This document shows positions 2,421 to 2,639 of a stretch of 4,434 nucleotides of DNA, piece by piece. Made by a program: the position numbers and the translations under genes. A model generated the notes under the pieces. It saw nothing but the letters and a program-made list of their open reading frames with translations. It had not been told where the DNA came from and did not search any database. The DNA lies in the IMG/VR virus record IMGVR_UViG_2917403263_000002; one strand, written 5' to 3'. The stretch's first letter is position 1; the number at the start of each line of letters is the position of its first letter. Source of the DNA: a virus. Its lineage: Duplodnaviria > Heunggongvirae > Uroviricota > Caudoviricetes.

Positions 2421-2639
2421 ATGGCAGACATCATTGATTCAGCATCAGAAATCGAAGAATTACAGCGCAATACAGCAATAAAAATGCGTCGTCTGAACTA
2501 CCAGACTGTATCTGCCACTCATTGTTGTGAGTGTGGCGATCCGATAGATGAGCGAAGACGCCTGGTCGTTCAGGGTTGTCGGACTTGTGCAAGTTGCCAG
2601 GAGGAGATCGAACTTAAGAACAAACAATGGGGATTGTGA
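2421..2639 (+). CDS. TraR/DksA-family C4 zinc-finger protein (lambda Orf73-like), 72 aa
   Basis: The translation MADIIDSASEIEELQRNTAIKMRRLNYQTVSATHCCECGDPIDERRRLVVQGCRTCASCQEEIELKNKQWGL has an acidic N-terminal helix followed by CxxC...(17 residues)...CxxC, the hallmark of TraR/DksA-type zinc fingers such as F-plasmid TraR and lambda Orf73. It lies where lambda orf73 sits in the exo-xis region. Confidence 0.8.
   Translation: MADIIDSASEIEELQRNTAIKMRRLNYQTVSATHCCECGDPIDERRRLVVQGCRTCASCQEEIELKNKQWGL

What the first reader, a model, noticed from the sequence alone, without database searches (positions are those of the whole stretch)
2421..2639. TraR/DksA-type RNA polymerase secondary-channel regulator retained in a defective prophage
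The product has the C4 zinc finger and acidic N-terminal helix of the TraR family. TraR-type proteins, including lambda Orf73, bind the RNA polymerase secondary channel and reprogram host transcription in a stringent-response-like manner without ppGpp. An intact copy in an element that has lost all lytic functions suggests it may be domesticated or still influencing host physiology.
Basis: partly seen in the sequence, partly recalled or inferred. Interest (0 to 1): 0.45.

Follow-up and report, generated by a model that had tools for sequence, protein, structure and literature searches.

The report
Lambda Orf73 copy in prophage remnant
The gene is a near-identical copy of phage lambda's already characterised Orf73, a small TraR-type protein that binds RNA polymerase, and nothing in the sequence shows that the host has adopted it, so the finding is correct but ordinary.

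Summary
The ORF at 2421-2639 (+) is real. It encodes a 72-aa protein that is 89% identical to phage lambda Orf73 (57 of the first 60 residues). It carries every TraR hallmark: DxxDxA (D3, D6, A8), CxxC-17-CxxC (C35, C38, C56, C59), the RR pair (R46, R47) and a C-terminal helix. Pfam places it above threshold, and the predicted fold matches RNAP-bound TraR best. Lambda Orf73 was shown in 2022 to bind RNA polymerase and to shut down rRNA and r-protein promoters without ppGpp, so the family call is right and already known.

The element is indeed a stump: a deletion joins the last 139 bp of bet to the 3' end of a tail-fibre gene.

The 'domesticated' inference is not supported:
- The gene and its 98-nt upstream region are 100% identical in DNA to copies in prophages that still carry their early region.
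- All seven neighbouring genes are equally intact.
- pL, N and cI are deleted, and two intrinsic terminators precede the gene.
- This remnant is rare.

Most likely the gene is a recently stranded passenger with little or no transcription.

Side observation: a conserved 31-aa upstream ORF that contains terminator t2 precedes orf73 homologues in most lambdoid relatives sampled.

The parts
2421..2639 (+). orf73 homologue: 72-aa TraR-type protein that binds the RNA polymerase secondary channel (function by homology). Motifs: DxxDxA at D3/D6/A8; zinc finger C35, C38, C56, C59; R46/R47; C-terminal helix 57-70.
   Evidence: 89% identical to lambda Orf73. Identical protein in phage Lambda_ev203.
2319..2414 (+). 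31-aa small ORF (MNMKSKIIRELQAPFLLFAFTLKRINQQFRD), probably lambda 'orf2313'. Its ATG overlaps the orf61 stop (ATGA), it contains terminator t2, and it stops 6 nt before the orf73 ATG.
   Evidence: Conserved in 80 of 109 distinct upstream regions, with mostly third-position variation in its C-terminal half. A 31-aa peptide was reported by ribosome profiling in lambda (PMC8614690). The equation with orf2313 is my inference from length and position.
2343..2371 (+). Intrinsic-terminator-like hairpin t2 (AGGGAGCT-ACA-GGCTCCTT followed by a T run), 60 nt upstream of orf73.
   Evidence: Folding gives -10.2 kcal/mol, z = -2.5. Letter-for-letter the t2 of Bloch 2014. Stem letters differ but pairing is kept in relatives.
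2338..2370 (+). Predicted promoter p1 of Bloch et al. 2014 (-35 TCATCA, -10 box TTTTATTAT). In silico only, and it overlaps t2.
   Evidence: BPROM prediction in lambda and phi24B; the sequence is identical here. It did not pass the consensus scan. The commonest variant among close relatives has TATTGT.
1748..1770 (+). Intrinsic-terminator-like hairpin t1 inside orf60a.
   Evidence: Folding gives -18.5 kcal/mol, z = -2.7. Identical to t1 of Bloch 2014.
2023..2322 (+). orf61-like gene, long form (93 aa from the ATG at 2041, 99 aa from the TTG at 2023).
   Evidence: PHROG 303, E = 3e-41.
1839..2030 (+). orf63 homologue (DUF1382).
   Evidence: E = 1.2e-31.
1678..1866 (+). orf60a homologue (DUF1317).
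   Evidence: E = 1.8e-40.
1007..1687 (+). exo (lambda exonuclease, YqaJ family), full length at 226 aa.
   Evidence: E = 1.4e-30. 98.4% DNA identity to lambda exo.
872..1010 (+). 3' fragment of bet (RecT-type). This is the right edge of the deletion.
   Evidence: Homology to full prophages begins at 872, which corresponds to L003 8452 inside the RecT gene at 7805-8590.
847..871 (.). Deletion junction: about 25 nt that match neither the tail-fibre gene nor bet.
   Evidence: The junction is absent from 5426 complete E. coli genomes and from the GTDB species representatives.
585..846 (-). 3' fragment of a side tail-fibre gene (stf').
   Evidence: Pfam Phage_fiber repeats. 99.7% identical to the 3' ends of intact tail-fibre genes up to position 846.
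1..585 (-). Tail fibre assembly gene tfa, 194 aa, intact.
   Evidence: Caudo_TAP E = 1.3e-44.
2687..2926 (+). DUF4222 gene. It directly follows orf73; no ea22 is present.
   Evidence: E = 1.4e-19.
3066..3302 (+). Excisionase (xis).
   Evidence: Exc E = 6.7e-6. 100% DNA identity to full prophages.
3292..4434 (+). Lambda-type tyrosine integrase, 380 aa. It abuts icd in related genomes.
   Evidence: contexts.

Best explanation
What it is. The ORF is an orthologue of lambda orf73, the TraR-family gene of the lambdoid exo-xis region.

What the protein would do if made (inferred). It would insert its N-terminal helix, with the DxxDxA tip, into the RNA polymerase secondary channel. The zinc-finger globular domain (R46/R47) would sit on the rim helices and beta'Si3, and the C-terminal helix on betaSi1. 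It would thereby inhibit rRNA and ribosomal-protein promoters without ppGpp. This is inferred from 89% identity to lambda Orf73, with all tested residues conserved; lambda Orf73 was shown to act this way.

Why it is here. A lambdoid prophage integrated at icd lost everything between bet and the end of its tail-fibre gene in one deletion. That stranded the exo-to-int arm.

Likely state in this remnant (inferred). The deletion removed pL, nutL/N and cI. orf73 now lies behind two intrinsic terminators (t1, t2) with no antiterminator, so it is most likely transcribed little or not at all. Its intactness reflects how recent the deletion is, not selection by the host.
For: Identity:
- Pfam PF01258 above cutoff; PHROG 54.
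- PDB sequence hits to TraR and YbiI.
- AF2 model (pLDDT 82) has as its best Foldseek PDB hits TraR in RNAP complexes, 6n57_M and 5w1s_M, TM 0.56-0.58.
- 63/71 identical to lambda Orf73; residues 1-60 differ only at positions 27, 29 and 30.
- Same gene order as lambda: exo-orf60a-orf63-orf61-orf73.

Function of the orthologue (PMC9239242):
- Lambda Orf73 binds RNAP and inhibits rrnB P1 and rpsT P2 in vitro and in vivo.
- It needs D3 and D6.
- It is expressed from pL.
- It cuts plating efficiency about 10^4-fold when pL is derepressed.

Motif conservation in 98 homologues: D3 92, D6 95, A8 95, C35 98, C38 96, C56 92, C59 89, R46 93, R47 95.

Remnant:
- Junction at 847-871 between stf' and bet'.
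- The element in L095 holds no regulatory, replication, lysis or head genes.

Recency and neutrality:
- orf73 and its upstream 98 nt are 100% identical in DNA to 8 early-region-bearing prophages.
- The whole 3563-bp arm is 98-99% identical with no indels.
- All neighbours are full length.

Expression:
- No + strand promoter-like site upstream of the gene inside the window.
- t1 and t2 are present and fold well.
- In lambda, mRNA drops downstream of t2 (PMC4195576).
- A hairpin plus T run precedes orf73 in 206 of 233 related loci, with at least 3 unrelated stem sequences, so the terminator is a selected feature.
Against: - Expression was not measured.
- Bloch et al. predicted a promoter p1 between t2 and orf73, and saw orf73/ea22 mRNA exceed upstream genes in H2O2-induced phi24B. 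The same letters are present here, so low or stress-induced transcription independent of pL cannot be excluded.
- At least four independently formed remnants all keep orf73 intact, while exo or ea22 is damaged in some: the window, L001, L013-type and L014. This is weakly suggestive of retention. However, orf73 is only 219 bp and its alleles are common ones.
- A 10/12 promoter-like site lies just left of the window in L095 and points toward exo.
- The C-terminal 11 residues differ from lambda's. No assay exists for this allele.
Confidence: 0.72

Rival explanations
1. Domesticated regulator. The host keeps orf73 because low-level or stress-induced expression, for example from the predicted p1 promoter downstream of t2, gives a ppGpp-independent brake on ribosome synthesis and growth.
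For: - The p1 letters are retained.
- phi24B orf73/ea22 mRNA is high after H2O2.
- Four independently formed remnants keep orf73 intact while exo (L001, L013) or ea22 (L014) is damaged.
- Orf73 is active at single copy when transcribed.
Against: - Zero nucleotide differences from copies in prophages that still carry their early region, so there is no signal of host-specific selection.
- All neighbours are equally intact.
- p1 is a BPROM prediction only, with a 21-nt spacer to TATTAT. It fails a standard consensus scan, and its -10 is altered in the commonest variant.
- The remnant is rare: 4 contigs, and 0 of 5426 complete genomes for the junction.
- Sustained expression is strongly growth-inhibitory.
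Confidence: 0.12
2. Recombination reservoir or still-mobile stump. The arm persists because int and xis are intact. The exo-to-int module can be picked up by incoming lambdoid phages through homologous recombination. On this view orf73 matters for phages, not for the host.
For: - int, xis and the attR-side icd' duplicate are present.
- The module is 98-99% identical to that of many prophages, giving ample homology.
- Acquisition of DNA from defective prophages by temperate phages is documented (PMC3945230; title and abstract seen).
Against: Nothing here shows excision or exchange. This is compatible with, rather than opposed to, the neutral-passenger reading, and it says nothing specific about orf73.
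Confidence: 0.12
3. Zinc-finger look-alike without TraR activity, since some proteins classified as TraR/DksA only by the C4 finger do not act on RNAP.
For: - TIGR02419 (the TraR subfamily model) scores 52.9, below its cutoff of 59.7.
- Two extra cysteines (C36, C53) could perturb folding; the authors raised this for lambda Orf73.
Against: - Lambda Orf73 itself scores 54.7, below the same cutoff, and is experimentally active.
- The inactive look-alikes lack DxxDxA and the C-terminal helix; both are present here.
- Full-length alignment to TraR, not just to the finger.
Confidence: 0.03

Closest known systems
Bacteriophage lambda Orf73 (exo-xis region; 'Orf2310' of the ribosome-profiling study)
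   Same: - 89% identical (63/71), and 57 of the first 60 residues.
- Same six cysteines, DxxDxA motif and RR pair.
- Same neighbours: exo-orf60a-orf63-orf61 upstream.
- The same t1, t2 and p1 sequences upstream, and the same 31-aa upstream ORF.
   Different: - The C-terminal tail is EEIELKNKQWGL against EDLELISKQRGSK in lambda, and the protein is 72 aa rather than 73.
- It is followed by a DUF4222 gene instead of ea22/ea8.5.
- In this element pL, N and cI are deleted, so the native expression route is gone.
F-plasmid TraR (PDB 5W1S, 6N57)
   Same: Size, three-element architecture (N-terminal helix, C4 globular domain, C-terminal helix), DxxDxA, R48/R49 equivalents, and ppGpp-independent action on RNAP (the last by inference through lambda Orf73). 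Best structural match to the AF2 model.
   Different: - Only 30% identical.
- Two extra cysteines.
- Lambda Orf73 activated the tested promoters weakly if at all, whereas TraR activates.
- Phage context rather than a tra operon.
DksA
   Same: C4 zinc-finger globular domain, acidic tip motif and secondary-channel binding. The family relation is through PF01258.
   Different: DksA is 151 aa with a coiled coil and needs ppGpp. This protein is 72 aa with a single N-terminal helix. DksA chains match only weakly (E = 0.09-0.34).
E. coli YbiI (PDB 2KGO)
   Same: The zinc-finger core aligns well (E = 1.3e-9 with the family profile).
   Different: YbiI matches only residues 29-66 (the finger). It is a chromosomal gene of 88 aa, and the N-terminal DxxDxA helix is not aligned.
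Other phage TraR homologues (P2 Orf82, 186, VHML Orf8, VP882 Orf61)
   Same: Same family. [quoted passage not shown]
   Different: About 37-41% identity for the P2/186-type hits, and different genome neighbourhoods.

Membership tests
TraR subfamily of the DksA/TraR family | C4 zinc finger, CxxC-17-CxxC | tested here: met
   C35-x2-C38-x17-C56-x2-C59 in the translation. Conserved in 98, 96, 92 and 89 of 98 homologues.
TraR subfamily of the DksA/TraR family | DxxDxA motif at the start of a single N-terminal helix | tested here: met
   D3-I-I-D6-S-A8. Conserved in 92, 95 and 95 of 98 homologues. The AF2 helix spans residues 5-23, with low confidence for residues 1-10.
TraR subfamily of the DksA/TraR family | Arg pair equivalent to TraR R48/R49 (rim helices and beta'Si3 contact) | tested here: met
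   R46 and R47 align with TraR R48 and R49. Conserved in 93 and 95 of 98 homologues.
TraR subfamily of the DksA/TraR family | About 73 aa, with a C-terminal helix carrying an acidic residue (betaSi1 contact) | tested here: met
   72 aa. Predicted helix at 57-70 with pLDDT about 90-96. E64 is invariant in 86 sequences.
TraR subfamily of the DksA/TraR family | Profile-HMM score above the curated cutoff | tested here: inconclusive
   Pfam PF01258 scores 36.2 against a cutoff of 24.9, so it is met. NCBIfam TIGR02419 scores 52.9, below 59.7, so it is not met. The experimentally validated lambda Orf73 also falls below that cutoff at 54.7, so the cutoff is too strict for this clade.
TraR subfamily of the DksA/TraR family | Fold like RNAP-bound TraR | tested here: met
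   The top Foldseek PDB hit is 6n57_M (E = 9e-4, TM 0.58), followed by YbiI and 5w1s_M. The model pLDDT is 82.
TraR subfamily of the DksA/TraR family | Binds the RNAP secondary channel and inhibits rrnB P1 without ppGpp | not testable with these tools
   Shown for lambda Orf73 (PMC9239242). Inferred here from 89% identity with all mutated or contact residues conserved.
Lambdoid exo-xis region Orf73 orthologues | Location downstream of exo-orf60a-orf63-orf61 on the pL-operon strand | tested here: met
   Gene order in the window compared with lambda.
Lambdoid exo-xis region Orf73 orthologues | Six cysteines (the extra ones at TraR positions 38 and 55) | tested here: met
   C36 and C53 are present. 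C53 is kept in 88 of 98 homologues and C36 in only 35 of 98.
Lambdoid exo-xis region Orf73 orthologues | Transcribed from pL with N antitermination | tested here: not met
   pL, nutL, N and cI are absent. The element goes from bet' straight into stf'. This concerns expression in this element, not the identity of the gene.
DksA proper | About 150 aa with a coiled coil and ppGpp-binding residues | tested here: not met
   72 aa with a single N-terminal helix. DksA chains match only at E = 0.09-0.34, over the finger.
Domesticated (host-co-opted) prophage gene | Preferential conservation relative to neighbouring prophage genes | tested here: not met
   All eight ORFs of the arm are intact. orf73 is 100% identical in DNA to copies in early-region-bearing prophages.
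Domesticated (host-co-opted) prophage gene | Own promoter active in the host outside the phage lytic programme | tested here: inconclusive
   No consensus-scan hit. Only the BPROM-predicted p1. No expression data are available.
Domesticated (host-co-opted) prophage gene | Fixed or widespread in a host lineage | tested here: not met
   The junction is in 0 of 5426 complete E. coli genomes and 0 GTDB representatives. The exact exo allele is on 4 contigs.

The most novel reading that the evidence does not exclude
orf73 may not be a free-standing gene but the second cistron of a conserved two-part unit.

What is seen:
- A roughly 30-aa upstream ORF (here 2319-2414, probably lambda orf2313) is translationally coupled to whatever gene precedes it through an ATGA overlap.
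- It carries an intrinsic terminator inside its own coding sequence. The stem co-varies (E..A with S..R in the peptide).
- It stops 2-6 nt before the orf73 ATG.

What this could mean:
- It could be a leader-peptide-type attenuator that lets the growth-arresting Orf73 be made only when the transcript is N-antiterminated or is being closely translated.
- In a remnant lacking N, such a device, perhaps together with the predicted p1, could give conditional low-level Orf73 expression and so a ppGpp-independent growth brake for the host.
Probability: 0.12. Interest if true: 0.5.

Novelty: already known. Interest (0 to 1): 0.13.

Why it matters
As stated, it matters little. The protein is an allele of a gene whose biochemistry was published in 2022, and RefSeq already names it 'TraR/DksA family transcriptional regulator'.

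It would matter if a stranded copy were shown to be expressed. Orf73 shuts down rRNA and r-protein promoters and slows growth at single copy. A host-controlled copy would then be a stringent-response bypass encoded by prophage debris.

The sequence evidence here points the other way: a recent deletion, loss of the promoter and antiterminator, and no differential conservation.

The side observation bears on how lambdoid phages restrict expression of a toxic host-reprogramming factor. A conserved small ORF with an embedded, co-varying terminator sits directly upstream of orf73 homologues, and this is cheap to test.

Tried and rejected
1. Junction search in GTDB representatives. An exact 59-mer across the junction found no hits. 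The source was found instead through the exo protein.
2. Look-up of the stf' fragment as a called protein: not on record.
3. NCBIfam TIGR02419 as a membership test. The window protein is below the cutoff, but so is the experimentally validated lambda Orf73. I rejected it as a discriminating test.
4. Promoter scan. No + strand sigma-70-like site lies upstream of orf73 in the window. The literature p1 does not meet the scan's criteria, so I kept it only as a prediction.
5. Conservation of p1 among 80 close IMG/VR relatives. This was uninformative because they are too close; the commonest variant changes the -10-like hexamer.
6. The count of structure pairs for t2. I did not use it because the two main stem classes pair in registers one nucleotide apart (loops of 3 and 4 nt). 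I counted hairpins per sequence with a script instead.
7. Explaining the tfa-proximal cargo block as a simple inversion or deletion relative to E. coli. No single inversion or deletion reproduces the order icd'-QueH...SDR-tfa. A 185-kb deletion would remove essential genes; that point rests on my own knowledge of the K-12 map. I left it as capture into the phage b-region position, or a rearrangement.
8. The lambda ribosome-profiling paper (Liu et al. 2013) is not in the searchable library. The identity of the 31-aa ORF with 'orf2313' therefore rests on length and location as quoted in PMC8614690.
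Full report
**1. The observation**

The window has an ATG-started ORF at 2421-2639 on the + strand. It encodes 72 aa: MADIIDSASEIEELQRNTAIKMRRLNYQTVSATHCCECGDPIDERRRLVVQGCRTCASCQEEIELKNKQWGL.

Features read directly from the translation:
- The CxxC-17-CxxC arrangement: C35, C38, C56, C59.
- Two further cysteines: C36, C53.
- An acidic N-terminus: D3, D6, E10, E12, E13.

Evidence that this is more than chance:
- Pfam PF01258 (zf-dskA_traR) matches at E = 5.9e-9, 36.2 bits against a gathering score of 24.9.
- PHROG 54, 'DksA-like zinc-finger protein', matches end to end at E = 1.4e-25.
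- phmmer against PDB sequences finds F-plasmid TraR (5w1s_M, E = 2e-5, residues 1-69 aligned to 1-71) and YbiI.
- A profile of 86 homologues improves these hits to 8e-9 and 1e-9.

**2. What the gene is**

I read lambda orf73 from NC_001416; it is an unannotated ORF between ea22 and orf61. The window protein is 63/71 identical to it. Residues 1-60 differ only at positions 27, 29 and 30, and the last 11 residues diverge.

Other close copies:
- An identical protein is encoded by phage Lambda_ev203.
- A 98.6% identical one is in Shigella phage SfI.
- Copies 85-92% identical are in many Stx phages.

The neighbours are those of the lambda exo-xis region, in the same order and on the same strand:
- exo (YqaJ, 226 aa)
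- orf60a (DUF1317)
- orf63 (DUF1382)
- a long-form orf61
- orf73

Here orf73 is followed by a DUF4222 gene, xis and int instead of ea22/ea8.5.

**3. Family membership**

Gopalkrishnan et al. 2022 (PMC9239242) list the features that matter in TraR and its homologues:
- the DxxDxA motif at the tip of the N-terminal helix, which makes the active-site contact
- the C4 finger
- R48 (rim helices) and R49 (beta'Si3)
- the C-terminal helix (betaSi1)

All are present here: D3/D6/A8, the four cysteines, R46/R47 (aligned to TraR R48/R49), and a predicted helix at 57-70.

In an alignment of 98 full-length homologues, the positions are kept as follows:

| Position | Kept (of 98) |
|---|---|
| D3 | 92 |
| D6 | 95 |
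| A8 | 95 |
| C35 | 98 |
| C38 | 96 |
| C56 | 92 |
| C59 | 89 |
| R46 | 93 |
| R47 | 95 |

E64 is invariant in the 86-sequence set.

An AlphaFold2 model built on that alignment has mean pLDDT 82, above 89 for residues 31-72 and lower at the N-terminus. It shows helix 5-23, a zinc-ribbon-like core and helix 57-70. Its best Foldseek matches in the PDB are TraR bound to RNA polymerase (6n57_M, E = 9e-4, TM 0.58; 5w1s_M) and YbiI. DksA chains come next.

One test is formally not met. NCBIfam TIGR02419 (the TraR subfamily model) gives 52.9 bits against a cutoff of 59.7. Lambda Orf73, which has been shown to work, scores 54.7 and fails the same cutoff, while F TraR scores 80.5. The cutoff is therefore too strict for this clade and says nothing against membership.

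**4. What the protein does**

This is known by homology and was not tested here. Findings for lambda Orf73:
- It binds RNAP and complements a dksA-null strain.
- It inhibits rrnB P1 and rpsT P2 in vitro and in vivo.
- It loses activity with D3N/D6N or D3A/D6A.
- It raises burst size about 4-fold.
- It slows host growth and lowers plating efficiency about 10^4-fold when expressed from a derepressed pL in a defective prophage.
- It activated the three tested host promoters weakly if at all. The authors tentatively link this to the two extra cysteines.

The window protein has the same six cysteines. RefSeq annotates the same protein as 'TraR/DksA family transcriptional regulator'.

**5. The element is a stump**

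- On the right, window 872-4434 aligns without gaps at 98-99% to the int-proximal arm of prophages integrated next to icd. Within the 10 kb fetched, these still carry bet, gam, kil, cIII, N, cI, cro, cII, O, P and ninB.
- Position 872 falls inside bet, 139 bp before its stop.
- On the left, tfa and the 3' end of a side tail-fibre gene, on the opposite strand, match intact tail-fibre loci up to position 846.
- About 25 nt in between (847-871) match neither.
- The orientation is what a single deletion from bet to stf in a prophage map would leave: int-xis-...-exo-bet ... stf-tfa.

The exact window occurs in three public contigs (L095-L097). In L095 the interval between icd and its icd' duplicate holds only the genes of the window plus about 5.5 kb of non-phage genes. 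'Lost all lytic functions' is therefore correct.

**6. Domesticated, or just stranded?**

(i) No time for decay. The 219-bp gene and the 98 nt upstream are 100% identical at the DNA level to the copies in eight prophages that still carry their early region. The identical protein is listed in 10,638 blocks of the assembly collection. With no substitution at all since the deletion, intactness carries no information about selection.

(ii) No selective retention. exo, orf60a, orf63, orf61, DUF4222, xis and int are all full length, with no indel in 3563 bp.

(iii) The native expression route is gone.
- Lambda orf73 is transcribed from pL, and pL, nutL/N and cI are deleted here.
- On the orf73 strand two intrinsic-terminator-like hairpins remain: 1748-1770 inside orf60a, and 2343-2361 plus a T run 60 nt upstream of orf73. 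They fold at -18.5 and -10.2 kcal/mol, z = -2.7 and -2.5.
- They are letter-for-letter the t1 and t2 predicted by Bloch et al. 2014. Those authors also found lower mRNA downstream of t2 in lambda.
- The consensus scan found no sigma-70-like site on the + strand upstream of orf73.

(iv) Toxicity. Sustained expression is strongly growth-inhibitory, so a repressor-less remnant could hardly tolerate a well-expressed copy.

(v) Rarity.
- The junction is in none of 5426 complete E. coli genomes.
- It is in none of the GTDB representatives.
- The exo allele of the window occurs on only four contigs.

**7. What keeps the rival alive**

- Bloch et al. predicted, with BPROM only, a promoter p1 (-35 TCATCA, -10 box TTTTATTAT) overlapping t2. 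They saw orf73/ea22 mRNA exceed upstream genes in H2O2-induced phi24B. The same letters are at 2338-2370 here.
- That promoter is weak by consensus (3/6 in the -35, and 21 nt to TATTAT), and the commonest variant among close relatives reads TATTGT.
- The 30 C control in the Gourse-lab study does not test p1, because the construct was deleted up to the start of orf73.
- Remnants joining tail-fibre DNA to bet or exo arose independently at least four times, and all keep orf73 while exo or ea22 is damaged in some:
  - the window
  - L001 at icd, with exo frameshifted
  - the L013 type at icd, in six genomes, with exo 5'-truncated
  - L014 at att-lambda, with ea22 frameshifted
- With a 219-bp target and only four events, this is weak evidence.

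I put the domestication reading at about 0.12.

**8. How orf73 is gated**

A 31-aa ORF (2319-2414) has these features:
- It starts with an ATGA overlap on the orf61 stop.
- It contains the whole t2 hairpin and T run; the T run encodes PFLLF.
- It stops 6 nt before the orf73 ATG.

A review states that ribosome profiling of lambda found a 31-aa peptide, orf2313, in this conserved region. I infer that it is this ORF.

In Enterobacter and Citrobacter prophages whose Orf73 is 63-75% identical, a homologous small ORF again overlaps ATGA with a different upstream gene (DUF1382 or DUF4406) and carries a hairpin with different stem letters.

Across 233 loci (109 distinct 110-nt upstream regions), the counts are:
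- 206 loci have a hairpin plus T run upstream of orf73.
- 80 distinct regions carry the small ORF, and 78 of these have the hairpin inside it.
- The C-terminal half of the peptide (PFLLLAFTFNRINRQFREH) is kept with mostly third-position variation, a coding signature.
- The stems fall into at least three unrelated letter classes: GGTCGC:GCGGCC (34), GGAGCT:GGCTCC (33) and GCCTCT:AGAGGC (3). The peptide residues switch together (E..A with S..R).

In a P22-like context a plain terminator sits 25-45 nt before orf73 with no small ORF.

The loci are not independent samples, and the hairpin was scored with my own script. The pattern nevertheless indicates that a terminator immediately upstream of orf73 is a selected feature. 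This fits restriction of a toxic product to N-antiterminated transcription. Because translating ribosomes repress nearby intrinsic terminators (PMC4824070, abstract), it also allows a translation-coupled gate. For the remnant, which has no N, this strengthens the 'mostly silent' reading. As a mechanism it is untested.

**9. Verdict**

- The finding correctly identifies a TraR-type gene and correctly describes the family.
- The gene is an allele of lambda orf73, already characterised and already annotated.
- The proposed significance, domestication, is not supported by the sequence evidence and is at best unresolved pending expression data.
- Novelty: already known.
- Interest: low.

Noticed in passing
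window 2319-2414 (and L100, L102, L107-L229 upstream of their orf73 homologues): A conserved 30-31-aa ORF lies directly upstream of orf73. It overlaps the preceding gene's stop (ATGA), contains the t2 terminator hairpin inside its coding sequence, and ends 2-6 nt before the orf73 ATG. The stem letters co-vary in at least 3 classes, and the C-terminal half of the peptide is conserved with third-position variation. It is probably lambda 'orf2313'; its function is unknown.
   Followed up: partly
L095 3084-8995 (left of the window in the source contig): Between tfa and the icd' duplicate (attR side) lie about 5.5 kb of non-phage genes: an SDR, an NmrA-like gene, two alpha/beta hydrolases, PgrR and a full-length QueH. 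In complete E. coli genomes this block sits between mppA and mpaA, about 185 kb from icd, with QueH reduced to a 75-bp remnant. It looks like host DNA captured in the phage 'b-region' position, or a rearrangement.
   Followed up: partly
L001 6001-8700; L013 5001-6700; L014 5966-8240: Independent prophage stumps in E. coli join tail-fibre DNA to bet or exo with different junctions, at icd and at att-lambda. The icd stumps carry or abut defence-type genes: a DGQHR/DndB-like gene replacing orf63-orf61, a macro-domain gene, an ASCH gene and a McrBC-like pair.
   Followed up: partly
window 847-871: About 25 nt at the deletion junction match neither the tail-fibre gene nor bet. They may be filler DNA or come from a divergent allele. 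No microhomology was evident.
   Followed up: partly
window 2023-2322: The orf61 homologue is the long form (93-99 aa) seen in Stx phages, not the truncated 61-aa lambda version. RefSeq names one allele 'cell division protein ZapA', but Pfam ZapA matches only at E = 0.088, below threshold.
   Followed up: no
window 2640-2926: ea22, described as part of the conserved five-gene exo-xis block, is absent. orf73 is followed after 47 nt by a DUF4222 gene. The same is true in prophages at icd that still carry their early region.
   Followed up: no
window 2934-2972: An AT-rich inverted repeat with 16-bp arms and a 7-nt loop lies between the DUF4222 gene and xis. The scan lists it as terminator-like on the - strand. 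This intergenic region is 100% conserved among the icd prophages compared.
   Followed up: no
L095 8887-8916 (about 80-110 nt left of window position 1): The best promoter-like match in the neighbourhood (CTGAAA-18-TATAAT, 10/12) is on the + strand, just after the SDR gene. It points antisense through tfa toward exo and orf73.
   Followed up: no
window 2421-2639, residues C36 and C53: Of the two extra cysteines that distinguish lambda Orf73 from TraR, C53 is kept in 88 of 98 homologues but C36 in only 35 of 98. C53 may therefore be functionally relevant in this clade.
   Followed up: partly
L095 13430-20681 compared with L003: The chromosomal flank icd-to-phoQ of the source contig is only 95.2% identical to an E. 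coli genome, while the captured pgrR block is about 98% identical to E. coli. The host may be a divergent Escherichia lineage. The organism was not identified.
   Followed up: no
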